Both the position numbers and the translations under genes were made by a program. Shown piece after piece: positions 1,475 through 12,830 of a stretch of DNA of 64,000 bases (the stretch's first letter is position 1; the number at the start of each line of letters is the position of its first letter). The stretch comes from an uncultured Ignavibacteriaceae bacterium (GTDB lineage: Bacteria > Bacteroidota > Ignavibacteria > Ignavibacteriales > Ignavibacteriaceae), in NCBI GenBank assembly GCA_964371075.1, contig CAYJKN010000006.1, positions 128,592 to 192,591 of the forward strand, given 5' to 3'. The notes under the pieces are model-generated. The model had not been told where the DNA came from. It saw only the letters and a list, made by a program, of their open reading frames with translations, and did not search any database.

Positions 1475-2857
1475 ATGTATCATAAAAAAATATTATCTCT
1501 CTTTTTTCTCGCCTCGCTCTTCTTATTCTTTGGGTGTAAATCTGAAGAAAATCCGGTTATCCCGGTCAACACCGGGGGTGAAGTTACCCAATATGGAGTT
1601 CCATTTGCCGACGTTCCTGAGACAAAAGGGGTAATAATGTATGAAATAAACCTGCGGGCATTCAGTTCTCAAGGGAATTTTGCCGGAATTGAAATCCGCC
1701 TCGATTCCATTAAAGCTCTTGGAGTTAATGTGATTTGGCTGATGCCGATTCATCCTGTGGGTAAGTTAAAATCAGTGGGTCAGCTTGGCTCACCCTACTC
1801 TGTTCAGGATTACAACGCTGTTAATCCCGAGTTTGGTACTCTTGATGACCTCAGGCGATTGGTGGAAATAGCACATCAAAAGGGGATAGCTGTGATCCTC
1901 GATTGGGTAGCAAATCATACTGCTTGGGATAATCCCTGGATCGCCAATAAATCCTGGTACACACAAGATGGGAGTGGAAACATAATAATCCCCGCGGGTA
2001 CAAACTGGCAGGATGTGGCTGATCTAAATTATAACAGTCAGGAGATGCGAGCGTCAATGATTAAAGCGATGAAATATTGGGTTCTTGCAGCCAATATAGA
2101 TGGATTTAGATGTGACGCTGCTGATATGATCCCGTTTGATTTTTGGAAGCAGGCAATAGATTCACTTAAAACCATTCCAAACCGTAAACTGATCCTTCTC
2201 GCTGAAGGGGCAAGACTCGACCATTACACTGCCGGTTTTCAACTTACTTACGGTTGGGACTATTATAATAAAATTAAATCAGTGTTTCAGACAGGAGAGA
2301 CAGCTTCAAACATAAGATTTACTAATGCTACAGAATATAACTTCCTCCCTGCGGGTTCACACAGACTTCGATTTACATCAAATCATGATGAGTGTGCATG
2401 GTTTGATACCCCCCTCGGAAATTTTAAGGGTAAGCCGGGTTCGATGGCAGCTTTTGTACTTACTGTTTTTAACGGTGGGGTACCTCTCATTTACAACGGT
2501 CAGGAGGTTGGGTGTTCTGTAAAACTTCCATTCTTTTCCAAAAGTCCTATAGACTGGACTACCAATCCCGATATGATGATTGAATATAAAAATATTCTTT
2601 CATTCAGAAGGGAAAATGCCACAGTTAAGGAGCCGGTTACAGCGGTTGATGCAAATGCTGATGTGGTGCTGTTCAGCAAAAAACTTGGGTCAGAAGAGGT
2701 TTTGGTTATTGTGAATGTTCGAAATACAACAGTCAATTATCAGATTCCGATGACTTGGGCAAACTCTATTTGGAGAAATGCACTTGGTTCAAATCTTATT
2801 ACTCTGAGTACTTCAATAAATTTGGAACCATACAAATATTATGTATTGGTCAAATGA
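1475..2857 (+). CDS. GH13 alpha-amylase-family lipoprotein
   Basis: Lipobox LFFGC. GH13 conserved regions are present: DWVANHT, GFRCDAADM, LLAEG, FTSNHDE. ATG at 1475 is preferred over the TTG at 1472. Confidence 0.85.
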   Translation: MYHKKILSLFFLASLFLFFGCKSEENPVIPVNTGGEVTQYGVPFADVPETKGVIMYEINLRAFSSQGNFAGIEIRLDSIKALGVNVIWLMPIHPVGKLKSVGQLGSPYSVQDYNAVNPEFGTLDDLRRLVEIAHQKGIAVILDWVANHTAWDNPWIANKSWYTQDGSGNIIIPAGTNWQDVADLNYNSQEMRASMIKAMKYWVLAANIDGFRCDAADMIPFDFWKQAIDSLKTIPNRKLILLAEGARLDHYTAGFQLTYGWDYYNKIKSVFQTGETASNIRFTNATEYNFLPAGSHRLRFTSNHDECAWFDTPLGNFKGKPGSMAAFVLTVFNGGVPLIYNGQEVGCSVKLPFFSKSPIDWTTNPDMMIEYKNILSFRRENATVKEPVTAVDANADVVLFSKKLGSEEVLVIVNVRNTTVNYQIPMTWANSIWRNALGSNLITLSTSINLEPYKYYVLVK

Positions 2858-2924
2858 TTTAGAGGTAAGTTCTGATTATGAATATTTAATCCTGTCAAAT
2901 TAACGCTCTCGCAGATTTCGTCAT

Positions 2925-3095
2925 GCAGAGGGCAATCGGGATAATATCTTCCTCCTCTCACTGACGGCTAAAATCCGCGATAATCCGCCTCATCCGTTTC
3001 ATCCGCGTTCTATTTTAAATCTCACTCTGCGAAAATCCGTCTAATCTGAGTGTATTCGCGTCCCCCTTATCCGTCGCATCCGCGTTCTAATTTAA
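2925..3095. repeat. Composite intergenic repeat (CGGAT-word family), inverted copy
   Basis: Seven ATCCG words lie in about 120 bp. There is an internal direct repeat CATCCGCGTTCTAWTTT (about 2998 and about 3077). The reverse complement of 3025-3066 matches 61366-61405 at 34/40 positions (counted by hand). Confidence 0.7.
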
Positions 3096-3215
3096 TGCTA
3101 TCTATAAAGTTGTTCCTTTCCAATTAATAAGACATAATTTTACCGATATTGAGAAATCTGCGCTTGAAGAAATAACAGAAAATGGGATAGCGCATCGAAT
3201 GGCAAGGGTATTGTT

Positions 3216-3232
3216 TGGCATCAAATATGCAT
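3216..3232 (+). promoter_or_regulatory. Possible sigma-54-type -24/-12 promoter upstream of the sensor kinase
   Basis: TGGCAT-CAAAT-ATGCAT has GG and GC at the canonical 12-nt register of TGGCAC-N5-TTGCW, 16-30 nt before the start codon. No enhancer-binding protein is seen in the window. The site also overlaps a TAttgTTTG string. Confidence 0.25.
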
Positions 3233-3247
3233 GACTAAAATAGTTAA

Positions 3248-5248
3248 TTGTGGAAAAGGATAATGTCCGGCGTTATTTTTACTGTTCCTGACAGATGTAA
3301 AAGGTGCTACTCTTGTATTAGAGAGTGCCCGGCCAAAGCTATTCGTGTTGTGAACGGTCAAGCACTAATAATTCAGGACCGCTGTATCTCATGCGGGAAC
3401 TGTCTTGTTGTGTGCTCTCAGCACGCAAAATGCATCGTCAGTAATATCGAATATACTCGAAATGATGTCCTCTCCGACATTGAGTGTGAGCGAATTGCAA
3501 TGGTGGCTCCATCATTTGCGGCATCTTTCCCTGATTCATACGACAAAGTTCCTGCTGCACTAAAAAGGTTGGGGTTTGATACCGTTGTAGAGACCGCCTT
3601 TGGAGCGGATTTGATCAGTGGTGAGTATGTTGATGCTGTAATGAATGCTGATGTGAGACCGGTAATAAGCACCGCATGTCCCGCCGTATTTAACTACATA
3701 CAAAAGTATTACAACCATTTGGTACCCAATCTTGCAAAAATCGTCTCACCGATGATTGCACTTGGCAGGTACTTAAAAAAAGAAAACGGGGAGAAAACAA
3801 AAATAGTTTTTGTTGGTCCTTGTGTTGCCAAGAAGGATGAATTTACTGATGGACCGGTTGAAGGGGTAATTGATTCAGTGATTACCTTCAGTGAATTAAA
3901 AGAGATGCTTTTTGATGATAACATCGTTCTTTCAGAGTTGGAGACATTTCCATTTGACCCTCCAAGAGCGTCTCTTGGAAAAGCATTCCCATTGGCAGGC
4001 GGGCTGTTAAAATCCACTGATCTTCCCGGTGATGTGCTGGATGATGAAATTGTAGTAGTTGAGGGGAGAGAAAAAGTTCTCGAGATAATCGACGAAATCT
4101 CGAACAAAAATATCAATGCAAGGTTTGTTGATATTCTTTTTTGTGAAGGGTGTATTTCCGGGCCTGTAGTTGACAGTGAATTAAATTTTTACTCTAAAAG
4201 AGAAAAAGTAATTGAGTTCATTAAAAAAGACTTAAAACAGGTGGATAAAAAAGTCTGGAAAAGTAATATATTTAACAGCCGGGATATGGACTTCAGTAGA
4301 ACTTTCATTAAAACAAGTGAGAGGAAACCGGCACCTGATGAACCGGTGATAACTGAGATTCTGGCAACTATTGGCATACACAACAAAAACGATGAGTTAA
4401 ATTGTGGTGCATGTGGTTATACAACTTGCAGGGAATTTGCGATTGCGATCGCCAAGGGTCTGAGTGAAAAAGAGATGTGTTTACCCCATCTTCTTGATGA
4501 AATTCGTGAGGCATACGACAATTTACATGAGACAGAGGCTGCGCTCCACTCTGCTGAGAAACTCGCTTCAATAGGGCAATTGGCTGCAGGGGTGGCTCAT
4601 GAAATTAATAATCCACTCGGCACTATTATGGTTTACGCGGGTTTATTAAAAAAATTGTGTGATAAACACAAAATAGAGGCAGACATTGGTGGTGATCTTG
4701 AAATGATAATGGGAGAAGCCAACCGGTGCAAGAATATTGTTGCAAATCTACTTAATTTTGCAAGACAGGGAAAATTAAATGTTACCACTTTCGACATTAT
4801 GGCGGAAGTAAAAGCTATTATGAAAAAACTATCGGTTACGGGCAAACTCGACGGTATATCCGTTGAGATCGATCTGCCTGAAACCGCAGTTGTAATTCAG
4901 GGTGATAGAGACCAGATTGAACAGGTGATCGCTAATCTTGTCCTCAACGCAGTTGATGCAATGGCCGACAAACAAACCAGGAGGATTCGAATAAGACACG
5001 AAGACCTGGGCGAGAATCTCAAAATCTACATAGCGGATTCGGGAGGTGGAATAAAGAAAGAACACTTTAGCAAATTGTTCACACCTTTCTTCACTACAAA
5101 AGAGGCAGGCAAAGGAACAGGTTTAGGATTGGCTATCGCCTATGGCATTATGAAAATGCATAAAGGTGATATCAATTTTAAGAGTGAAGAAGGAAAAGGA
5201 ACCGAGTTCTTTATTAATCTTCCGAAGAAACAGTTCTTAAACATATAG
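3248..5248 (+). CDS. Sensor histidine kinase with N-terminal 2x[4Fe-4S] ferredoxin and [FeFe]-hydrogenase H-domain-like sensor module (putative H2/redox sensor)
   Basis: Ferredoxin motifs CKRCYSCIRECP and CISCGNCLVVCS. H-cluster-like motifs STACP (3668-3682), GPCVAKKDE (3815-3841) and FCEGCISGP. A CGACGYTTC Fe-S motif. HisKA H-box AAGVAHEINNPL, N box NLVLNAVDAM, G boxes DSGGGI and GKGTGLGL. Alternative start ATG at 3263. Confidence 0.85.
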   Translation: MWKRIMSGVIFTVPDRCKRCYSCIRECPAKAIRVVNGQALIIQDRCISCGNCLVVCSQHAKCIVSNIEYTRNDVLSDIECERIAMVAPSFAASFPDSYDKVPAALKRLGFDTVVETAFGADLISGEYVDAVMNADVRPVISTACPAVFNYIQKYYNHLVPNLAKIVSPMIALGRYLKKENGEKTKIVFVGPCVAKKDEFTDGPVEGVIDSVITFSELKEMLFDDNIVLSELETFPFDPPRASLGKAFPLAGGLLKSTDLPGDVLDDEIVVVEGREKVLEIIDEISNKNINARFVDILFCEGCISGPVVDSELNFYSKREKVIEFIKKDLKQVDKKVWKSNIFNSRDMDFSRTFIKTSERKPAPDEPVITEILATIGIHNKNDELNCGACGYTTCREFAIAIAKGLSEKEMCLPHLLDEIREAYDNLHETEAALHSAEKLASIGQLAAGVAHEINNPLGTIMVYAGLLKKLCDKHKIEADIGGDLEMIMGEANRCKNIVANLLNFARQGKLNVTTFDIMAEVKAIMKKLSVTGKLDGISVEIDLPETAVVIQGDRDQIEQVIANLVLNAVDAMADKQTRRIRIRHEDLGENLKIYIADSGGGIKKEHFSKLFTPFFTTKEAGKGTGLGLAIAYGIMKMHKGDINFKSEEGKGTEFFINLPKKQFLNI

Positions 5249-5257
5249 AGGTATAAA

Positions 5258-5665
5258 ATGAACTACGAAAAAAAAATATTATTGGTTGATGACGATATTG
5301 ATATCCTGGAACAAAATAAGATACTTTTTGAAGCAGAAGGTTATACTGTTGAAACAGCAGAGACCAGCAATGATGGCTACGAAAAATTTCTGACATTTAA
5401 ACCGGCTTGTGCCGTTATCGATCTTATGATGGAAGAGTATGACTCAGGATTTGTTCTGGCTCATAAATTAAAAAGGCACCCGCTTGGTAAAAAGATGCCG
5501 GTGTATATCGTAACCGCAGTCGCCAATCAGACCGGGTTGCAGTTCGAGTCGATGACTCCTGAAGAACAGGAATGGATCAATGCTGATGATATTCTGAACA
5601 AACCTGTTGAAATAGAAGAAATTCTTAGCAGAATATCAGACTTTTACGAAAATCAATCCGGTTAA
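5258..5665 (+). CDS. Stand-alone response-regulator receiver protein
   Basis: LLVDDDIDIL, phospho-acceptor context AVIDLMMEE, IVTAV and NKPV. No output domain. Confidence 0.85.
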   Translation: MNYEKKILLVDDDIDILEQNKILFEAEGYTVETAETSNDGYEKFLTFKPACAVIDLMMEEYDSGFVLAHKLKRHPLGKKMPVYIVTAVANQTGLQFESMTPEEQEWINADDILNKPVEIEEILSRISDFYENQSG

Positions 5666-5683
5666 TAATGGAGCTCGAAAAGG

Positions 5684-7180
5684 GTGGAAGATTCTGATCA
5701 TCCTGCCAGGATCCTTTTAGTAGATGATGAAGATTATCTAAGAAACGGAGTAAAACGAATCCTTCAGATAGAGGGATTTGAGGTTGAAACCGCCGAAAAT
5801 GGTGCCGAAGGTATTAAAAAAGGTACCGAATTCGATTTTGATGTCGCGCTTCTTGATCTGAAGATGCCCGACATCAGCGGGATAGAAGTGCTCCGGATGA
5901 TAAGGCAGGCAAGACCAAACACCATCTGTTTTATGGCAACAGCTTATGCCAGTTATGAAACTGCGGTGGAAGCCACAAAACTGGGTGCAGAGGGTTATAT
6001 ACTAAAACCTTTCACCCCCGACGAACTCATCCACAATATAGAAAAAGGTTTACAGAAACGCCGGCTGATCCTTGAAGCGGAGAGGCTTAAGGCCGATCGT
6101 GAAGCCCGCCTCCTTGAACTTGCCTTCGAAAGAAGCAGGCTTAATACAATAATAAACCTGATGGCAGATGGTGTACTGGTGATCAACCAGTTTGGTGAAA
6201 TGGTTTATTATAACCCCGCAGCATTAAGATATCTCGATCTTGATGTGATACTTCTCGCTGAAGAAATACTTGAGATACTTCCTCCTGAAGTGAAGGAAAT
6301 CGCACAAAGGATGATTTCAAAAGAGAAATTTGAAGTTATGGGCGAATCGGTGCAATTTAAACTCTCCTCAAATCCTGATATGTTTGTTGAAGTTACATGT
6401 TCCCCAATCCCCGATCACGAGAAGAAAAAGATTGCCGGAATAGTAATTGTTGCCAAAAACATCACCCAATTTAAGGAAATCGAACAACTCAAATCGCAGT
6501 TTGTTTCGATGGTCTCCCACGAATTAAAAGCTCCTGTTGCTGCAACCATCGGTTTTTTGGATATTCTCCTTAACCCCAAAATGAAATTAACTGATGAGCA
6601 AAGATCCGATTTTTTGACTCGCAGTACCTCACGATTGAGAAGTCTTCTTACAATGGTAAATGACCTTCTCGACATTTCCAGGATTGAATTAAACACTGTT
6701 AAAAGGGAGATTGTAAAAATCGATCTTGCTGCACTTGTGCAAGAAACAGTGGAGATGATGCAATTTGAAGCAGCAAAAAAAAATATCACCATAAAGTTTT
6801 CCGCAGGAGAGAATTCGTTTGCCATTGAGGTTGACAGGCTTGAGATTGAAAGAGTGATCACCAACCTGATGAGCAATGCGGTGAAATATAATAAAACTGA
6901 TGGTGAGGTGCTGGTTTCACTTAAGAAAAAGGGAGCTTATATAATTCTTGAAATAAAGGATACCGGAATTGGCCTAAAACCTGAAGAAAAAAACCGGCTG
7001 TTCTCAGAGTTTTTCAGGGCTAAAAATGAGTTTACAAAAAGCATTCATGGCACCGGACTTGGATTGTCGATAGTTAAAAAGACCATTGACTACTATTCCG
7101 GCAAAATTGAAACTGAAAGTGAATACGGGAAGGGAACCACATTCAAAGTGTTCCTTCCTGAAAAGATTTTGAATAAATAA
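5684..7180 (+). CDS. Hybrid REC-PAS-histidine kinase
   Basis: N-terminal receiver (ILLVDDEDYL, LLDLKMPDISG, LKPF). PAS-like segment (INLMADGVLVINQFGEMVYYNPAAL). H-box SHELKAPV. HATPase motifs NLMSNAVKYN, DTGIGL, GTGLGLSIV. GTG start. Confidence 0.85.
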   Translation: MEDSDHPARILLVDDEDYLRNGVKRILQIEGFEVETAENGAEGIKKGTEFDFDVALLDLKMPDISGIEVLRMIRQARPNTICFMATAYASYETAVEATKLGAEGYILKPFTPDELIHNIEKGLQKRRLILEAERLKADREARLLELAFERSRLNTIINLMADGVLVINQFGEMVYYNPAALRYLDLDVILLAEEILEILPPEVKEIAQRMISKEKFEVMGESVQFKLSSNPDMFVEVTCSPIPDHEKKKIAGIVIVAKNITQFKEIEQLKSQFVSMVSHELKAPVAATIGFLDILLNPKMKLTDEQRSDFLTRSTSRLRSLLTMVNDLLDISRIELNTVKREIVKIDLAALVQETVEMMQFEAAKKNITIKFSAGENSFAIEVDRLEIERVITNLMSNAVKYNKTDGEVLVSLKKKGAYIILEIKDTGIGLKPEEKNRLFSEFFRAKNEFTKSIHGTGLGLSIVKKTIDYYSGKIETESEYGKGTTFKVFLPEKILNK

Positions 7181-7350
7181 TCGTTCTTTGAAACCGGGCG
7201 TGCTTAAAGTAGCACAGACATCATAACAGCGGAACTAATACACAATCTTAGCAGAGAGTTCCGACGGGAGAAGCCTCCCAGAGTCAACCGGAGTAATCCG
7301 GATAACAATATATTCATTCAAAAGACCAAAAATTAATGCAAAGGAAGAGT

Positions 7351-7722
7351 ATGTCTCTTATAGCAATAATTGACGACGACCCGGATATTATCGATGCCAC
7401 ATCTCTTGTACTTATGGCTAACGGATTCGAAGTTATAACAGCCAATAACCCCGGTGACGGGTTTAAAATTATCGCAGAACAAAAACCTGCCCTTATCATT
7501 CTCGATGTAATGATGCAGGAACCTGACGATGGTTTTTTCCTCGCCCAAAAACTCCGCCGCGATGGCGTGTCCACACCTATTCTCATGTACACTTCCGTCT
7601 CTAAAGCATTGGGATTCCAATTCGGAAAAAGTGACATGGTGCCGGTGGATGATTTTGTTGAGAAGCCTGTTTCTGCAGATGTTCTCATTGCCAAAGTTAA
7701 CAAACTCTTAAATAAAAGTTAA
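7351..7722 (+). CDS. Stand-alone response-regulator receiver protein (paralog of 5258..5665)
   Basis: IAIIDDDPDI, LIILDVMMQEPDDGFFLAQKLRR (compare DLMMEEYDSGFVLAHKLKR in the first receiver), EKPV. ATG at 7351 is preceded by AAGGA at 5-nt spacing. The track start at 7336 is the alternative. Confidence 0.85.
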   Translation: MSLIAIIDDDPDIIDATSLVLMANGFEVITANNPGDGFKIIAEQKPALIILDVMMQEPDDGFFLAQKLRRDGVSTPILMYTSVSKALGFQFGKSDMVPVDDFVEKPVSADVLIAKVNKLLNKS

Positions 7723-7733
7723 GGGTAATAAAA

Positions 7734-8207
7734 ATGTTAGTACTTGAAAAAAACAATCTTACCGAAGAGATCGAACTCTTTGCCAGCCAATACGACTTCC
7801 ACAGAACGGCACTTATGCCACTGCTCGAGTACATTCAGGGGAAATATCATCATATCCCTGATTTTGCACAGCAGGAGGTGGCTCGTGTCCTCGATATTCA
7901 TCCGGTTGAAGTGTATGGAGTGATTTCTTTTTATTCATTCCTTAATGATCAGCCAAAAGGAAGAAATATCGTCCGTTTGTGCAGAACAATAATCTGTGAT
8001 ATGGCAGGAAAATGCCAGATTGAAAAGGCTATTGAGCGTGAACTTGGGCTGAAGTTTGGTGAAACCAGCAAAGATCAGAAGATCACACTTGAATTTACCA
8101 ACTGTTTGGGAATGTGTGATCAGGGACCGGCAATGATAGTAAATGACAGAGTTTACACAAAATTGGACCCCGAAAAAGCCTGTGCAATTCTTAAAGAGAT
8201 TAAGTAA
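7734..8207 (+). CDS. hydC: NuoE-like [2Fe-2S] thioredoxin-fold subunit of a multimeric [FeFe] hydrogenase
   Basis: Cys motifs CRTIIC and CLGMCDQGPAM characteristic of the NuoE/HydC family. Lies directly upstream of the NuoF-like gene. Confidence 0.85.
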   Translation: MLVLEKNNLTEEIELFASQYDFHRTALMPLLEYIQGKYHHIPDFAQQEVARVLDIHPVEVYGVISFYSFLNDQPKGRNIVRLCRTIICDMAGKCQIEKAIERELGLKFGETSKDQKITLEFTNCLGMCDQGPAMIVNDRVYTKLDPEKACAILKEIK

Positions 8208-8220
8208 GGAGAGATGAAAC

Positions 8221-9432
8221 ATGCATAATGATATAGTCAATACGATACACGAATCGAGTCTCCTTTTCTCGAATTATGAAGCTGGTTCGGCCATTAAAAA
8301 AGCTCTGGAAATGGGAAGGGACGACATCCTTTTTGAACTGAAAGCCTCCAAACTTAAAGGAAGAGGCGGAGCAGGATTCCCAACCTCAACAAAATGGATG
8401 CTCGTGGCAGCTGCCACGGGAGCAGATAAATTTATTATCTGTAACGCAGATGAAGGTGAACCCGGTACATTTAAAGACCGCGTGCTCCTGATGAATGCTC
8501 CCTTCCTGATACTTGATGGAATGGTAGTTGGCGGATATACTGTGGGCGCAGCTCACGGTTACATTTACCTGAGAGGTGAATATGTTTATATGAGACAATT
8601 TCTTGAAGATTGTCTAAATGAAATGAGAGAAAAAAACCTCCTTGGTGAAAATATCTGCGGTAAAGAAGGTTTTAACTTTGATATTTCGATTGTGATGGGA
8701 GCAGGAGCCTATGTTTGTGGTGAAGAGACTGCTCTTATAGAATCACTCGAAGGCCAAAGAGGTGAACCAAGAAACAGACCTCCATATCCTGTGAATACAG
8801 GTTTGTGTGGTGCTCCCACTACAGTAAACAATGTTGAAACTCTCGGAGCAGTTCCACATATTATTCTTATGGGTGGAGCAAAATATGCTGAGAGAGGAAC
8901 TTCTGCTTCCACGGGGTCAAAACTCTTCTCCATATCAGGAGATTGTGAAAAACCGGGTGTTTATGAACTTAACTGGGGTATCACGATAAATGAACTCCTG
9001 GTGAAGGTTGGAGCAAAAGATACTAAAGCTGTGCAAGTTGGTGGCGCATCGGGAATATGTATTCCAAAGTCAAAATTTGACCGGAAGCTTGCGTATGAAG
9101 ATGTTGCAACCGGTGGTTCAATAATGATATTTAATGAATCAAGGAAGATGCTCCATATTCTTAAAAACTTTATGGAATTTTTTGTTGAAGAGTCTTGCGG
9201 ACAATGTACACCGTGTAGAATTGGAAATCAAAAGCTGCTCGAAGGTGTGGAGATGCTTGAAAAAAATCAATACACATTTGCCCATATAAACAATCTTAAA
9301 GAACTGGGTGAAACAATGAAAATTGCTTCCAAGTGTGGATTGGGTCAAAGCAGTCCTAATCCATTCCTTTCGATTCTCGAAGACTTTAAAGAAGAAATAT
9401 TTCATGCTAAAAGTGATGGAGTCTATAAATGA
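8221..9432 (+). CDS. hydB: NuoF-like NAD(H)/FMN-binding subunit of a multimeric [FeFe] hydrogenase (short form, core only)
   Basis: GRGGAGFPT, EGEPGTFKDR, GAGAYVCGEETALIESLEG, ESCGQCTPCRIG...KCGLGQ. Only 403 aa; no extra N- or C-terminal Fe-S domains. Confidence 0.85.
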   Translation: MHNDIVNTIHESSLLFSNYEAGSAIKKALEMGRDDILFELKASKLKGRGGAGFPTSTKWMLVAAATGADKFIICNADEGEPGTFKDRVLLMNAPFLILDGMVVGGYTVGAAHGYIYLRGEYVYMRQFLEDCLNEMREKNLLGENICGKEGFNFDISIVMGAGAYVCGEETALIESLEGQRGEPRNRPPYPVNTGLCGAPTTVNNVETLGAVPHIILMGGAKYAERGTSASTGSKLFSISGDCEKPGVYELNWGITINELLVKVGAKDTKAVQVGGASGICIPKSKFDRKLAYEDVATGGSIMIFNESRKMLHILKNFMEFFVEESCGQCTPCRIGNQKLLEGVEMLEKNQYTFAHINNLKELGETMKIASKCGLGQSSPNPFLSILEDFKEEIFHAKSDGVYK

Positions 9433-11306
9433 AGCATTTAAAAACATCGCGTGCCCCCATCAGTCAGAAAGCTTTTGTTCCAAGTGCTCCTGAGAATGTG
9501 GATACTATCGGTGGCACGGTAACAGTGCAAATAAACAGTAAAACAATGAGTGTACCATTTGGTACAACGATACTCGAAGCATGCCGCATGTCAGATATCT
9601 ACATTCCAACCCTTTGCGCCCATGAAGATTTGGGAATTGGAGGGCATTGCCGGCTTTGCCTGGTTGATGTTGAAGGAATGAGAACCCTGCAAGCTTCGTG
9701 TGCATTCCCTATTACAGCTCCGCTTAAAGTTAAAACCTCAACAATTGCTGTTAGAAAAGCAAGAAAACATATCATGGAACTGCTTTTAAGTGAGCATGTT
9801 GGTGAGTGTTATGCTTGCGTAAAAAACGGTAATTGTGAGCTTCAGAACCTCGCCAAAGAGATGGGCGTCGATTCGTATATGTTTGGTCACGACAATGTCA
9901 GCAAATATCCGGTTGACAGATCATCTTATTCAGTCATTCGTGATATGGATAAATGTGTAAATTGCCGCAGATGTGTGAGAACATGCATCGATCTTCAGGA
10001 AGTTGGTTGTCTCGAAGCAATTGGAAGAGGAGCAGAAACTCATATCGATACATTTATGGCCAAACCTCTTGCAGAAGTGGTTTGTATCAACTGCGGACAA
10101 TGTATTAACCGCTGCCCAACCGGTGCACTTTACGCAAATGATCCATCGGATGAGATTTGGAGAGCAATTGAAGACCCCACAAAACATGTGGTTATTCAGA
10201 CTGCCCCATCTCCTCGTGCTGCAATTGGTGAAGAATTTGGACTGGAACCGGGTATCTCTTTGACCAGAGAGTTAAATACCGCAATCAAAAGAATTGGTTT
10301 TGATAAGGTATTCGACACTAACTTCACAGCCGATTTAACAATCATGGAAGAGGGCACTGAGTTACTCACCAGGATTAAAAAAGCTGTTGTTGATGGAGAT
10401 GAATCTGTTAAATTGCCCCAGTTTACTTCGTGTTCACCGGGATGGGTTAAATATATCGAACATTTTTATCCCGAATATCTGGATCATCTTTCTTCTGCAA
10501 AATCACCTCAGCAGATGTTTGGAACAATTATAAAGACATTTTATGCTGAGCAGGCAGGTATCGATCCAAAAGATATCGTCAGCGTTGCTTTGATGCCATG
10601 CTCCGCAAAGAAATTCGAGTGCAACCGTCCTGAGATGGATGCTTCGGGTTACAAAGATGTTGATTATGGTCTCACAGCCCGTGAAATGGCAATGATGATA
10701 AAAGAAGCAGGTATGAAACTTCCTTCACTCCCTAAATCTGATTTTGATAATCCTTTTGGTCTCGGTTCGGGAGCAGGACTTATCTTTGGTGCCACGGGTG
10801 GTGTAATGGAAGCTGCTCTGAGAACAGTTTACGAACTGGTCACAGGGCGTGAAGTACCATTTGAGAAACTTCGTATAGAGGCCGTCAGAGGCTTTGAAGG
10901 AGTGAAGCAATCATCTGTAGTGCTTGAAAATTGTGTACCCGACTGGTCATTCCTGGAGGGTGTGGAACTGAAGTTCATCGTTGCTCATGGCACGGCAAAT
11001 GCAAAAAAGGTAATGGAACTGCTTAAAGCCGGAGAACTCTACGATGTACATTTCATCGAGATCATGGCATGCCCCGGTGGCTGTCTTGGTGGTGGTGGTC
11101 AACCTGTTCCTACAAACGAAAAGATAAGAAAAGCAAGAGCTAAAGCAATATATGCTGAAGAAGAGACACTTCCAATCAGGAAATCTCATGAAAACAGTCA
11201 TGTAGCTGAGTTTTATGCCAAGTTTATTCCTGAGGGTCCATGCAGTCACAAGTCTCACGAACTGCTGCATACTCACTATACAAAACGAGGCAAATTCATA
11301 CTCTGA
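9429..11306 (+). CDS. hydA: [FeFe]-hydrogenase catalytic subunit (2Fe-2S, His-ligated 4Fe-4S, 2x4Fe-4S and H-domain)
   Basis: CAHEDLGIGGHCRLCLV...SC, HVGECYACVKNGNC, CVNCRRCVRTC, CINCGQCINRCP. H-cluster motifs L1 FTSCSPGW (variant of TSCCPxW), L2 MPCSAKKFE, L3 EIMACPGGCLGGGGQP. ATGA overlap with hydB. Confidence 0.9.
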   Translation: MKHLKTSRAPISQKAFVPSAPENVDTIGGTVTVQINSKTMSVPFGTTILEACRMSDIYIPTLCAHEDLGIGGHCRLCLVDVEGMRTLQASCAFPITAPLKVKTSTIAVRKARKHIMELLLSEHVGECYACVKNGNCELQNLAKEMGVDSYMFGHDNVSKYPVDRSSYSVIRDMDKCVNCRRCVRTCIDLQEVGCLEAIGRGAETHIDTFMAKPLAEVVCINCGQCINRCPTGALYANDPSDEIWRAIEDPTKHVVIQTAPSPRAAIGEEFGLEPGISLTRELNTAIKRIGFDKVFDTNFTADLTIMEEGTELLTRIKKAVVDGDESVKLPQFTSCSPGWVKYIEHFYPEYLDHLSSAKSPQQMFGTIIKTFYAEQAGIDPKDIVSVALMPCSAKKFECNRPEMDASGYKDVDYGLTAREMAMMIKEAGMKLPSLPKSDFDNPFGLGSGAGLIFGATGGVMEAALRTVYELVTGREVPFEKLRIEAVRGFEGVKQSSVVLENCVPDWSFLEGVELKFIVAHGTANAKKVMELLKAGELYDVHFIEIMACPGGCLGGGGQPVPTNEKIRKARAKAIYAEEETLPIRKSHENSHVAEFYAKFIPEGPCSHKSHELLHTHYTKRGKFIL

Positions 11307-11326
11307 TAATTTCTTTATGTTAATTT

Positions 11327-11367
11327 AGAGGTTGTTTTTTTTATGAAAAGCAACCTCTTTTGTTTTT
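11327..11367 (+). terminator. Rho-independent terminator after hydA
   Basis: AGAGGTTG...CAACCTCT stem followed by TTTTGTTTTT. Confidence 0.7.
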
Positions 11368-11399
11368 AAAGCATCTAATTGATTAAAAAAGGAGTAAAT

Positions 11400-11990
11400 A
11401 TGGGAAGAATACTAATACTTCTGTTTGTTTCCGTTTTGATTTTCACCGGTTGTGTTAAAAAGGTGGAACCTAAAAAGGATGTTAAACTTGAAGAGGCAAA
11501 AATGGTTGCCGGTAAAGCTGCCGGAGAATTCATGAAAGAGTTAAAGTCTATTTTGGTGGCAGAAATGAAGAAAGGTGGTCCCGAGAGTGCATTAAATGTA
11601 TGCTCGGATACAGCCCAGGAATTTGCCAAAACATATTCTGTGAAGAAAGGGATGGAGGTTGGAAGAGTCTCTTTTATGAACAGAAATGAAGCAAATGTCC
11701 CTGATGAAGCAGAAGTGATGTGGCTTAAAGAGTGTGAAAACATGATGAAAGCGGATAACTTCAATAAAGACACTGTTTTCTCCAGAGTGGAAAAATCGGC
11801 AAACAGCCGGACATTACATCTCGCTAAACCAATTCTTTTGGCGGAAGAATGTGTAGTTTGTCATGGTACGGATGAACAAATCCCCGGTAATATTAAGAAG
11901 TTAATAGCTAAAAAATACCCTGACGATAAGGCTGTAAATTTTAGTCCGGGTGATCTAAGGGGATTGGTAACCGTAAAAATGAAATTTTAA
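11400..11990 (+). CDS. Tll0287-like (DUF3365) c-type heme lipoprotein
   Basis: Lipobox IFTGC. Single CxxCH (CVVCHG) near the C-terminus in a DUF3365-like context (family assignment from memory). AAGGAG lies 5 nt before the ATG at 11400. Confidence 0.65.
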   Translation: MGRILILLFVSVLIFTGCVKKVEPKKDVKLEEAKMVAGKAAGEFMKELKSILVAEMKKGGPESALNVCSDTAQEFAKTYSVKKGMEVGRVSFMNRNEANVPDEAEVMWLKECENMMKADNFNKDTVFSRVEKSANSRTLHLAKPILLAEECVVCHGTDEQIPGNIKKLIAKKYPDDKAVNFSPGDLRGLVTVKMKF

Positions 11991-12116
11991 AAGTCGCATT
12001 ATCCGGGGTTAAAATTTTTTAAAATATATTAAAGTATAACATTCAGTAATACAGTCTATCTGGTTTTTCAAAAAATAGATAGGTGAGTTTACTTAAACAA
12101 TCACTTAAATATAAAA

Positions 12117-12830
12117 TTAAAAAGTTTTAACCTTGATTTTATTATTAAAAAAATGTTGGTAGTCCTGGTACGGCTTCCAGTCACCGCCCCATTTCCAACC
12201 ATTTTTGATAAAGATTTTATAGATCAGTGCTTTTCTGTGGATTGTGCCATTTTTGGTGATATCATATTTTGCTCCTTTTGGTGATACTCTTTTGCCTGAT
12301 ACAAACGGGTTCCAAAATGGATTGATATCGAGGGCAAGACCGTAGGCGTGTTTACTCATGCTCCGGGTTCCGGAGACTAATCGATAGTTGAAGCTTGATG
12401 TATTGTTGTTAACCATTGAGCTGTCATCTGACCATTTATATTTACTCATCGGTTCGATTTTTTCAATTACAAACCCCGAATCCGCAATTTCTTTGAATAT
12501 TAACCTTATCTGAGTTGCAACTTCTTTGTGTACAATTAACCATGCTTCTTTTCTGTTGCCGTCAGGGTTAAGAAATTGTACTTTTACAGCAGTAAGTATT
12601 TCCGCAAGCTTGTCACTTTTTTTCTTATTGATAATTTTGAGATCCACCAGCGACTTTAATTCCCCTGCTAAAAAGTCTTTCGCTTCTTTTAAGCTGTCTT
12701 TTTTTGTTACATGCGATCCAATAGTTGAGTCTTTAGCGACAACTTTTGATGGAGTGGCAGATCTTTCAGTTGCAGGTGAGCAAGAGATCAACAACAGTGA
12801 AAGTGAGAATTTTAATATCCAGCCGGTCAT
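12117..12830 (-). CDS. M15-family (VanY/D-Ala-D-Ala carboxypeptidase-like) peptidoglycan peptidase, lipoprotein
   Basis: Lipobox LLISC. SKHAYGLALDINP and WGGDW...DYQHF are metal-ligand-like motifs of M15 peptidases. Confidence 0.7.
   Translation of the reverse strand: MTGWILKFSLSLLLISCSPATERSATPSKVVAKDSTIGSHVTKKDSLKEAKDFLAGELKSLVDLKIINKKKSDKLAEILTAVKVQFLNPDGNRKEAWLIVHKEVATQIRLIFKEIADSGFVIEKIEPMSKYKWSDDSSMVNNNTSSFNYRLVSGTRSMSKHAYGLALDINPFWNPFVSGKRVSPKGAKYDITKNGTIHRKALIYKIFIKNGWKWGGDWKPYQDYQHFFNNKIKVKTF

What the first reader, a model, noticed from the sequence alone, without database searches (positions are those of the whole stretch)
3248..5248. Histidine kinase whose sensor domain is an [FeFe]-hydrogenase H-domain: candidate direct H2 sensor
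One 666-aa polypeptide contains three parts in order. First, two ferredoxin-type 4Fe-4S motifs. Second, a hydrogenase large-subunit-like domain with the cluster-ligand motifs recognisable: STACP for L1, GPCVAKKDE matching the CxxKxxE of L2, and FCEGCISGP for L3. Third, a four-Cys CGACGYTTC motif, a coiled coil and a complete HisKA/HATPase transmitter. In L1 the residue that acts as proton relay in catalytic enzymes (first Cys of TSCCP) is Ala, as expected for a sensor rather than a catalyst. The gene sits at the head of a cluster ending in hydCBA. Kinase-linked sensory (Group C-type) [FeFe] hydrogenases are predicted in classification schemes. To my knowledge the direct kinase fusion has not been characterised biochemically. 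No hydEFG maturase genes are in this window.
Basis: partly seen in the sequence, partly recalled or inferred. Interest (0 to 1): 0.6.

Follow-up and report, generated by a model that had tools for sequence, protein, structure and literature searches.

The report
Hydrogenase-domain sensor kinase, no maturases
This gene fuses a sensor-type iron hydrogenase domain directly to a signalling kinase and heads a conserved hydrogenase gene cluster. The design is already catalogued but untested, and here it sits in a bacterial genus that has none of the three known enzymes for building the hydrogenase cofactor.

Summary
ORF 3248-5248 (start probably ATG 3263, 661 aa) encodes two ferredoxin-type 4Fe-4S motifs, an [FeFe]-hydrogenase H-domain, a Cx2Cx4Cx16C cluster motif and a complete HisKA/HATPase transmitter. 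All four H-cluster cysteines and the CN-binding Lys align to CpI. The proton-relay Cys is Ala, and M353/M497 are Gly/Leu. Motif L3 is Cx2C, one residue shorter than the canonical motif.

The gene heads a seven-gene unit (kinase, REC, REC-PAS-kinase, REC, hydCBA) kept in 28 of 41 Ignavibacteriales genomes. A conserved sigma-54-like promoter sits in front of it. Close relatives fuse the same 420-aa module to sigma-54 activators, GGDEF or MCP outputs, so it is a true sensory module.

The architecture is not new. Kinase-fused group C hydrogenases are in HydDB and in genome papers, and this scan has met them repeatedly on other DNA. None has been tested biochemically.

The twist is that this genome, and all 11 genomes of its genus, lack hydE, hydF and hydG. 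They nevertheless keep five H-domain genes under strong purifying selection. Direct H2 sensing stays the best reading (about 0.5). An iron-sulfur-only redox sensor is the main rival.

The parts
3263..5248 (+). Coding sequence of the hydrogenase-domain sensor histidine kinase. The ORF is open from TTG 3248; the likely start is ATG 3263, giving 661 aa.
3216..3231 (+). Sigma-54-like -24/-12 element TGGCATCAAATATGCA, about 32 nt upstream of the ATG
   Evidence: It is conserved upstream of the first gene of the cluster in relatives and never found before the internal genes. rpoN and 10 EBPs are in the genome.
3284..3424 (+). Two ferredoxin-type [4Fe-4S] motifs (CKRCYSCIRECP, CISCGNCLVVCS)
   Evidence: Pfam Fer4 families. 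Invariant in 28 orthologs.
3494..4165 (+). [FeFe]-hydrogenase H-domain (PF02906)
   Evidence: E 7.6e-51. Aligned to solved hydrogenases.
3668..3682 (+). Motif L1, STACP. Ala143 stands at CpI C299 (proton relay) and Cys144 at C300.
3815..3841 (+). Motif L2, GPCVAKKDE. Gly190 = M353, Cys192 = C355, Lys195 = K358, Glu198 = E361.
4139..4165 (+). Motif L3, FCEGCISGP. Cys299 = C499 and Cys302 = C503; the spacing is Cx2C instead of Cx3C.
4403..4480 (+). C-terminal Cx2Cx4Cx16C cluster motif (C386, C389, C394, C411; PF04060)
   Evidence: The motif is defined in PMC8163306.
4574..4768 (+). HisKA/DHp domain. The phospho-accepting His451 is the codon at 4598-4600, in AHEINNPL.
4901..5230 (+). HATPase_c catalytic domain with N, G1, F and G2 boxes
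5258..5665 (+). Stand-alone receiver RR1 (135 aa) with DD, D55, T86 and K115
5684..7180 (+). REC-PAS-HisKA-HATPase hybrid kinase (498 aa)
7336..7722 (+). Stand-alone receiver RR2 (128 aa), 11 nt upstream of hydC
7734..8207 (+). hydC (NuoE-like 2Fe-2S subunit)
8221..9432 (+). hydB, short form (403 aa, NuoF-like, without extra Fe-S domains)
   Evidence: Compare I. album IALB_0256 in PMC3362086.
9429..11306 (+). hydA (625 aa). L1 is TSCSP. NCBIfam group A6: 788.8 bits against a cut-off of 765.
11327..11358 (+). Terminator-like hairpin with a T-run after hydA

Best explanation
The gene encodes a soluble sensor histidine kinase of the kinase-fused branch of the putative sensory (group C-like) [FeFe] hydrogenases.

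Proposed path:
1. Inferred: the H-domain binds an H-cluster and reacts slowly with H2. It has no proton-relay Cys and no flanking Met residues.
2. Inferred: the resulting change in redox state or conformation passes through the Cx2Cx4Cx16C domain. The last Cys of that motif sits at the start of one long predicted helix that runs into the DHp helix carrying His451.
3. Inferred: this sets the autokinase/phosphatase balance of an NtrB/AtoS-type transmitter.
4. Inferred: phosphoryl groups go to the adjacent receiver RR1 and/or the receiver of the REC-PAS hybrid kinase, which feeds RR2. They probably also go to an unlinked NtrC-type activator that drives the sigma-54-type promoters in front of this cluster and the other hydrogenase operons.
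5. Net effect: hydrogenase expression or activity is matched to H2.

Shown: the domain architecture, the ligand positions, synteny with hydrogenase operons, conservation of the promoter motif, purifying selection, and modular reuse of the sensor module.

Inferred: H2 as the ligand, the phosphotransfer routes, and the output. Because the genus lacks HydE, HydF and HydG, this reading also needs the [2Fe] subcluster to come from an unknown route.
For: - Architecture and ligand mapping.
- All cluster ligands are invariant in 28 orthologs at 52-97% identity, and so are K358, E361 and the APS and SP elements that line the [2Fe] pocket.
- C299 is A/S/T/P, M353 is Gly (as in TmHydS) and M497 is Leu (as in TamHydS) (PMC8163306).
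- The seven-gene unit HK-REC-REC/PAS/HK-REC-hydCBA is conserved in 28 of 41 genomes of three families. A second hydCBA often lies directly upstream.
- The same sensor module is fused to sigma-54 EBP, GGDEF and MCP outputs in relatives.
- A sigma-54-like element sits only before the first gene of the cluster and before the two other hyd loci. rpoN is present, with 10 EBPs of which 8 carry REC.
- The transmitter's closest matches are ZraS/AtoS/NtrB-type kinases.
- dN/dS is 0.036 overall and 0.038 for the H-domain. dS is saturated between species while dN is 0.12-0.16.
- The three catalytic HydAs of the same genome, two with perfect TSCCP/MPCxxKKxE/CPxGC motifs, are equally conserved without maturases. 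This argues that some supply of H-cluster exists.
- TmHydS and TamHydS bind an H-cluster and behave like sensors when matured artificially (PMC8163306, PMC13104023).
Against: - HydE, HydG and HydF were not found in this genome. It is 98.4% complete, in 12 contigs with 900 N. The checks were curated HMMs, tblastn with relatives' HydG and HydE, and searches for BATS and HydF_tetramer domains, which gave nothing.
- They were not found in any of the 10 other genomes of the genus either.
- Only about 6 of the 28 genomes with the kinase fusion have a full set.
- The Cx2C spacing of L3 is not that of any hydrogenase with a solved structure.
- In TamHydS the C-terminal cluster does not respond to H2 (PMC13104023). 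The relay step through that cluster may therefore be conformational rather than redox.
- No DNA-binding output is encoded in the cluster, and no EBP lies within 20 kb in any locus.
- No kinase-fused member has been tested.
Confidence: 0.5

Rival explanations
1. It is an iron-sulfur-only redox sensor. In these maturase-less bacteria the H-domain carries only its [4Fe-4S] subcluster. The chain of four cubanes then reports the redox poise of ferredoxin/NAD(H), or O2/NO damage, to the kinase. That signal adjusts the neighbouring HydABC-type complexes. H2 is not bound.
For: - No HydE/F/G in the genome or the genus.
- 22 of the 28 genomes with the fusion lack a full set.
- Order-wide, about 65 of 136 high-quality genomes with catalytic-type HydA lack HydG.
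- Invariant Cys ligands are expected under this model too.
- Position 299 varies freely (A/S/T/P).
- Strong purifying selection persists without maturases.
Against: - Residues that matter only for the [2Fe] subsite stay invariant: K358, the APS element, the SP element, and the Gly that opens the pocket at M353.
- The same genome keeps two canonical catalytic HydAs, which have no known function without the [2Fe] subcluster.
- In other lineages the same sensor family is reported next to hydEGF. That comes from earlier notes of this scan and was not verified here.
Confidence: 0.33
2. It is an ordinary H2 sensor, and the missing maturases are an artefact. hydEFG would lie on an unbinned plasmid or island, or in the unassembled 1.6% of the genome.
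For: All genomes of the genus are metagenome-assembled (record titles). Plasmids are often lost in binning.
Against: - Eleven of 11 genomes of the genus lack all three genes, including assemblies of one and six contigs.
- Several closed genomes of other genera also lack HydG while keeping HydA: G012, G041, G044, G047, G067, G073 and G133.
- In I. album hydEFG are chromosomal and next to hydABC (PMC3362086).
- In G012 a HydF-like gene remains beside hydCBA while HydE and HydG are gone. That looks like stepwise loss.
Confidence: 0.08
3. It is a catalytically working hydrogenase, or a decaying relic, whose kinase part is incidental.
For: The H-domain is intact, and group C and D enzymes show low H2 turnover in vitro (PMC8163306).
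Against: - The proton relay and the small-subunit domain are absent.
- Scores fall below the NCBIfam cut-offs for groups A and B.
- All kinase boxes are intact.
- dN/dS is 0.04.
- The module recurs with four different signalling outputs.
Confidence: 0.04

Closest known systems
Kinase-domain group C [FeFe] hydrogenases known from genome surveys: 'BfuT' with a His-kinase domain next to A3 hydrogenases in Hydrogenedentota, with HydDB reference WP_006928132.1 (PMC11406978); the Ca. Lernaella group C3 enzyme with a kinase domain (PMC9324843); and HydDB classes C1-C3 (PMC5037454)
   Same: The H-domain sensor is fused to a histidine-kinase transmitter and encoded beside trimeric group A hydrogenase genes. 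H2 sensing is presumed. All are uncharacterised biochemically.
   Different: Here the cluster carries a fixed REC / REC-PAS-kinase / REC set and a sigma-54-type promoter. The host genus has no HydEFG. The HydDB subgroup could not be assigned with the tools at hand.
TmHydS, Thermotoga maritima (group C, subclass M2f)
   Same: Two N-terminal 4Fe-4S motifs, an H-domain, and a C-terminal Cx2Cx4Cx16C motif. C299 is lost and M353 is Gly. It is encoded with a bifurcating hydrogenase (PMC8163306, PMC13104023).
   Different: TmHydS ends in a PAS domain rather than a kinase, and M497 is Ser there but Leu here. The window protein falls in the Cx2C-L3 assemblage, outside the starred clade of about 570-aa Cx3C proteins. 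T. maritima has HydEFG (control rows).
TamHydS, Thermoanaerobacter mathranii (group D, subclass M2e)
   Same: Sensor-like H-domain with the C-terminal 4Fe-4S motif; M497 is Leu; it lies upstream of a trimeric group A hydrogenase (PMC8163306).
   Different: It has no fused signalling domain, and M353 is Ser. Its C-terminal cluster is unresponsive to H2 (PMC13104023), which cautions against a simple redox relay.
Ignavibacterium album ortholog (P0101, 659 aa, 60% identical), annotated 'NtrC family signal transduction histidine kinase', presumably upstream of IALB_0255-0257
   Same: Same architecture. I. album has the same short-HydB / Cys-to-Ser-L1 type of hydCBA (PMC3362086).
   Different: I. 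album has hydEFG (IALB_0525, 0526, 0528). The window's genus does not. The position of P0101 in the I. album genome was not checked here.
Regulatory [NiFe] hydrogenase with its kinase (HoxBC-HoxJ / HupUV-HupT; HydDB group 2b)
   Same: The logic is the same: a slow hydrogenase reports H2 to a histidine kinase that controls hydrogenase genes (PMC5037454, table; further details from my own knowledge).
   Different: The metal site and fold are unrelated. Sensor and kinase are separate proteins there and fused here.

Membership tests
Putative sensory [FeFe] hydrogenases (group C-like, HydS type), kinase-fused branch | H-domain (PF02906) present | tested here: met
   E 7.6e-51, residues 83-306
Putative sensory [FeFe] hydrogenases (group C-like, HydS type), kinase-fused branch | Four Cys at the positions of CpI C300, C355, C499 and C503 | tested here: met
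   C144, C192, C299 and C302 align there and are invariant in 28 orthologs. The L3 spacing is Cx2C, shared with 53 of the top 150 cluster representatives.
Putative sensory [FeFe] hydrogenases (group C-like, HydS type), kinase-fused branch | Two N-terminal ferredoxin-type 4Fe-4S motifs | tested here: met
Putative sensory [FeFe] hydrogenases (group C-like, HydS type), kinase-fused branch | C-terminal Cx2Cx4Cx16C motif (PMC8163306) | tested here: met
   C386-x2-C389-x4-C394-x16-C411
Putative sensory [FeFe] hydrogenases (group C-like, HydS type), kinase-fused branch | Proton-relay Cys299 and the Met353/Met497 pair not conserved | tested here: met
   Ala143, Gly190 and Leu297. Position 299 is A/S/T/P in the orthologs.
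Putative sensory [FeFe] hydrogenases (group C-like, HydS type), kinase-fused branch | Signalling domain fused or adjacent | tested here: met
   HisKA and HATPase_c are fused. No PAS domain is present.
Putative sensory [FeFe] hydrogenases (group C-like, HydS type), kinase-fused branch | Encoded with group A hydrogenase genes | tested here: met
   hydCBA lies downstream in the window. The arrangement is conserved in 28 genomes.
Putative sensory [FeFe] hydrogenases (group C-like, HydS type), kinase-fused branch | Host encodes the H-cluster maturases HydE, HydF and HydG | tested here: not met
   None found in the genome or in 10 congeners
Putative sensory [FeFe] hydrogenases (group C-like, HydS type), kinase-fused branch | Binds an H-cluster and reacts with H2 | not testable with these tools
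   Needs protein chemistry (FTIR/EPR after maturation)
Putative sensory [FeFe] hydrogenases (group C-like, HydS type), kinase-fused branch | HydDB subgroup (C1, C2 or C3) | not testable with these tools
   The HydDB classifier was not available. Published kinase-fused examples were called C3 or C1 (PMC11406978, PMC9324843).
Class I (HisKA) sensor histidine kinases, NtrB/AtoS/ZraS-like transmitter | H box His plus N, G1, F and G2 boxes | tested here: met
   AHEINNPL, NLVLNAVDAM, DSGGGI, FTPFFTTK and GKGTGLGL. The best solved match is ZraS at 1.3e-33.
Class I (HisKA) sensor histidine kinases, NtrB/AtoS/ZraS-like transmitter | Cognate receiver domain nearby with an acceptor Asp | tested here: met
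   Three receivers follow, each with DD, D55, T86 and K115
Class I (HisKA) sensor histidine kinases, NtrB/AtoS/ZraS-like transmitter | Autophosphorylation and phosphotransfer | not testable with these tools
   Biochemical assay needed
Catalytic [FeFe] hydrogenases, groups A and B | Reaches the curated family score (TIGR02512 group A; TIGR04105 group B1) | tested here: not met
   94.3 bits against a cut-off of 406; 182 bits against 450
Catalytic [FeFe] hydrogenases, groups A and B | TSCCP proton relay and a small-subunit-like C-terminal domain (PF02256) | tested here: not met
   L1 is STACP and there is no PF02256 hit
Nar1/NARF-like non-hydrogenase H-domain proteins | H-domain relatives that do not hold a [2Fe] subcluster | not tested
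   No Nar1 sequence was compared. K358, E361 and the APS and SP pocket elements are retained here, and the closest relatives are HydS-type proteins.

The most novel reading that the evidence does not exclude
Ignavibacteriales keep catalytic and sensory [FeFe]-hydrogenase genes under strong purifying selection without the canonical maturases. In this genus all of HydE, HydF and HydG were not found in 11 of 11 genomes. Order-wide, about 65 of 136 high-quality HydA-bearing genomes lack HydG. If these proteins are functional hydrogenases and H2 sensors, bacteria must have a HydEFG-independent way to make or scavenge the [2Fe] subcluster, as has been proposed for archaea (PMC11216029). This kinase would then be an H2 sensor whose cofactor comes by that unknown route.
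Probability: 0.4. Interest if true: 0.85.

Novelty: new member of a known kind. Interest (0 to 1): 0.5.

Why it matters
Whether group C and D [FeFe] hydrogenases really sense H2 is still open. Only TmHydS and TamHydS have been studied, and neither has an assayable output (PMC13104023). A version fused directly to a histidine kinase gives a simple read-out: autophosphorylation with and without H2, in apo and holo forms. The question becomes directly testable.

The context adds a second question. A whole bacterial genus, and about half of the sampled order, conserves five (or several) H-domain genes without any known H-cluster maturase. Either an unknown cofactor supply exists in bacteria, or these proteins work without the [2Fe] subcluster.

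Tried and rejected
- AlphaFold2 on a 43-sequence alignment gave a poor model (mean pLDDT 65, pTM 0.40). I used only its secondary structure and ran no fold search.
- Rfam with permissive thresholds found nothing in 2800-12200, including the 155-nt spacer at 7181-7335.
- I looked for a sigma-54 activator within about 20 kb of the cluster in 29 loci and found none.
- Greening et al. 2016 (ISME J) could not be fetched, and HydDB classification could not be run.
- I considered that the protein might be a group A or B catalytic enzyme. I rejected this on curated scores and motifs.
- I considered that maturase loss might be an assembly artefact. I judged it unlikely because of closed genomes and 11 of 11 congeners.
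- The C-terminal region of the second sensor (C2:540909-542684) gave no Pfam PAS hit at E <= 1e-4, so I do not call it PAS.
Full report
**What is there.** The window has an ORF at 3248-5248 on the + strand, 666 aa from a TTG. An ATG at 3263 preceded by GGAAAAGGA gives 661 aa. That fits the 659-664 aa of database orthologs, so 3263 is the likely start.

Pfam finds two ferredoxin-type 4Fe-4S motifs (residues 13-59). It also finds the [FeFe]-hydrogenase large-subunit H-domain (83-306, E 7.6e-51), the PF04060 'putative Fe-S cluster' domain (384-413), HisKA (443-507) and HATPase_c (552-661). No small-subunit domain is present. The transmitter's best solved relatives are ZraS and other NtrB/AtoS-type kinases. 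The N-terminal part matches HydA of T. maritima, A. woodii and CpI.

**Ligand positions.** I aligned the sensor half against solved hydrogenases and against the three catalytic HydAs of the same genome. In 666-aa numbering:
- Ala143 stands at CpI C299, the proton relay, and Cys144 at C300.
- Gly190 stands at M353, Cys192 at C355, Lys195 at K358 and Glu198 at E361.
- Leu297 stands at M497, Cys299 at C499 and Cys302 at C503.

The best-scoring CpI chain is a variant that itself has Ala at position 299 (6gly).

The C-terminal motif is exactly Cx2Cx4Cx16C. This is the signature of the putative sensory subclasses M2e and M2f (PMC8163306). Gly at M353 is what TmHydS has, and Leu at M497 is what TamHydS has (PMC8163306). 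By curated NCBIfam scores the protein is not a group A or B enzyme (94 bits against 406; 182 against 450).

**Organism and context.** Record titles of near-identical loci place the window in uncultured Ignavibacteriales/Ignavibacteriaceae from activated sludge and anammox reactors. The I. album ortholog is 60% identical and is annotated only as an NtrC-family kinase.

Downstream genes are:
- a stand-alone receiver (5258-5665);
- a REC-PAS-HisKA-HATPase hybrid (5684-7180);
- a second stand-alone receiver (7336-7722);
- hydC, a short hydB and hydA (7734-11306).

All three receivers have the acidic pocket, the acceptor Asp, and the Thr and Lys.

A full-length ortholog of the kinase is present in 28 of 41 sampled genomes, from three families of the order. 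The downstream gene order is the same wherever the contig extends far enough. In many of them a second hydCBA, with the long 660-aa HydB, lies immediately upstream of the kinase gene. The window's hydCBA is the I. album IALB_0255-0257 type, with a short HydB and a Cys-to-Ser change in L1 (TSCSP here) (PMC3362086).

**Conservation.** In 28 orthologs at 52-97% identity every cluster ligand is invariant. So are L2 (GPCxAKKxE), L3 (D-x-LFCEGCIxGP), the APS and SP pocket elements, the C-terminal four-Cys motif and the H box. Position 299 varies (A, S, T, P).

Within the window's own genus the closest pair gives dN/dS 0.036, and 0.038 for the H-domain. Between the other species dS is saturated while dN is 0.12-0.16. 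The H-domain changes less than the kinase domain. The gene is therefore under strong purifying selection.

**A modular sensor.** A search of 1.84 billion cluster representatives with residues 1-430 gave 989 hits below 1e-30. Of the best 150, 46 carry a kinase domain. L3 is Cx2C in 53 and Cx3C in 71.

A quick tree separates a well-supported clade of about 570-aa Cx3C proteins from the Cx2C assemblage, in which the kinase fusions form most of one branch. That Cx3C clade holds this genome's second sensor.

Non-kinase Cx2C members carry the same Fer4 / H-domain / four-Cys module fused to other outputs. These are sigma-54 activator AAA+ plus HTH domains (seven of ten tested), a GGDEF domain, or an MCP signalling domain. 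Kinase-fused members occur in Bacteroidota, Armatimonadota, Bacillota and 'Deltaproteobacteria'. One input module joined to four classes of signalling output is strong evidence that it is a sensory domain. It does not identify the ligand.

**Output.** TGGCATCAAATATGCA at 3216-3231 fits the sigma-54 -24/-12 pattern. The element TGGCAY-N5-WTG(C/T/A) recurs at the same place in loci of the family where the kinase gene is first in the cluster. In loci where the long hydCBA comes first, a near-perfect TGGCACATTAATTGCA lies about 48 nt before that hydC instead. No match precedes RR1, the hybrid kinase, RR2 or the short hydC.

Similar elements precede the two other hyd loci of this genome. rpoN is present, along with ten sigma-54 activators, eight of them with receiver domains. 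None of these is within about 20 kb of the cluster in any locus. I therefore infer that an unlinked NtrC-type regulator is the transcriptional output. The receivers and the hybrid kinase would form a branch or modulator. This is inference.

The AlphaFold model was poor (pLDDT 65). It does predict one long helix from the fourth Cys of the C-terminal motif through His451. For TamHydS the C-terminal cluster does not change redox state with H2 (PMC13104023), so any relay may be conformational.

**The maturase problem.** The evidence that this condition is met:
- The window's genome is 3.95 Mb in 12 contigs, 98.4% complete, with 900 N. It has no match above cut-off to HydE, HydG or HydF.
- tblastn with relatives' HydG and HydE finds nothing.
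- There is not a single BATS-domain or HydF-tetramer-domain protein.
- All ten other genomes of the genus also lack the three genes, including assemblies of one and six contigs.
- Nine of those ten, like this genome, keep five H-domain genes; the 89%-complete single-contig one shows three.

The five H-domain genes in this genome are:
- two canonical HydAs with perfect TSCCP / MPCxxKKFE / CPxGC motifs;
- the TSCSP-type HydA of the window;
- this kinase;
- a second sensor encoded with a SpoIIE/PP2C phosphatase, a Rex-type repressor and another hydCBA.

The canonical HydAs score as high against PF02906 as those of maturase-bearing relatives. The window's HydA has dN/dS of 0.016-0.034. Of the 28 genomes with the kinase fusion, only about six have a full HydEFG set. 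Some keep only a HydE-like or only a HydF-like gene.

In an even sample of 151 genomes of the order at 90% completeness or better, 136 have a catalytic-type H-domain and 71 have HydG. About 65 therefore have hydrogenase genes without HydG, several of them closed genomes. The held literature has no report of this for Ignavibacteria. The same puzzle is described for archaea, where an alternative pathway was proposed (PMC11216029).

**Weighing.** The refutation criterion is met. It does not discriminate, though, because it applies equally to three catalytic hydrogenases that have no known role without the [2Fe] subcluster. Two readings remain:
- The H-cluster is supplied by an unknown route, and the kinase is an H2 sensor. 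I put this at about 0.5, plus 0.08 for missing maturase contigs.
- The proteins work with Fe-S clusters only, and the kinase senses redox poise. I put this at about 0.33.

Retention of K358 and the pocket elements, together with the catalytic paralogs, tips me towards the first.

**Novelty.** The architecture is already catalogued. HydDB lists kinase-linked group C enzymes (PMC5037454). Kinase-domain 'BfuT' proteins next to A3 hydrogenases are described in Hydrogenedentota, with a HydDB reference sequence (PMC11406978). A kinase-domain group C3 enzyme is noted in Ca. Lernaella (PMC9324843). This scan has also followed up the same fusion on other genomes several times, with the same verdict. 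No kinase-fused member has been characterised in the held literature. As of 2026 only TmHydS and TamHydS have been studied (PMC13104023).

The finding is a new member of a known, untested kind. What sets it apart is the maturase-less host genus and the conserved sigma-54 promoter.

Noticed in passing
Whole genome G000 and relatives (window = G000:C6:128592-192591): HydE, HydF and HydG were not found in this genome or in all 10 congeners. All 11 genomes keep H-domain genes: five each, except three in the 89%-complete single-contig G010. In 151 high-quality genomes of the order, 136 have a catalytic-type HydA but only 71 have HydG. I found no report of this for Ignavibacteria.
   Followed up: yes
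window 3216-3231; G000:C1 about 57650; G000:C2 about 540870; loci L051, L053, L054, L055, L059: Sigma-54-like -24/-12 elements stand in front of the first gene of each hydrogenase cluster (for example TGGCACATTAATTGCA before the long hydC in other families). None precedes the internal genes. No activator gene is nearby.
   Followed up: partly
window 9429-11306: The cluster's HydA has L1 = TSCSP, with Ser where CpI has the cluster ligand C300. It pairs with a short 403-aa HydB lacking extra Fe-S domains. This is the I. album IALB_0255-0257 / NCBIfam 'group A6' type. In A. woodii HydA1 (7q4v) the aligned chain shows the same TSCSP.
   Followed up: partly
G000:C2:535636-543808 (loci L043, L046): A second sensory module lies here. 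A 591-aa HydS-type protein (L1 STSCP, L3 Cx3C, same four-Cys motif) is followed by a SpoIIE/PP2C phosphatase. It is divergent from a Rex-type repressor and a hydCBA whose 676-aa HydA has canonical motifs.
   Followed up: partly
L047 (G012:C1:1744000-1763900): A closed genome retains a divergent HydF-like gene (350 bits) directly upstream of hydCBA and the sensor kinase, while HydE and HydG are missing. Other genomes keep only HydE. This suggests stepwise loss or re-use of single maturases.
   Followed up: no
Proteins P0150, P0161, P0170, P0172, P0178, P0185, P0151, P0135, P0154: The same Fer4 / H-domain / four-Cys sensor module is fused in other lineages to sigma-54 activator AAA+ and HTH domains, to GGDEF, or to an MCP signalling domain.
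   Followed up: partly
window 2858-3262: The 400-nt spacer before the kinase gene holds two copies of a short dispersed repeat (CATCCGCGTTCTA). There are 17 exact copies in the 3.95-Mb genome, mostly intergenic by position.
   Followed up: partly
window 7181-7335: The 155-nt spacer between the hybrid kinase and RR2 is the only long gap inside the cluster. It has no Rfam match even at permissive thresholds and no sigma-54-like element.
   Followed up: partly
G007:C1:360716-362712 and G010:C1:3295681-3297672: Two congeners show in-frame stops in the ortholog: one TGA in G010, several in G007. G010 is a single-contig assembly and both genomes score about 90% complete, so sequencing errors are as likely as pseudogenes.
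   Followed up: no
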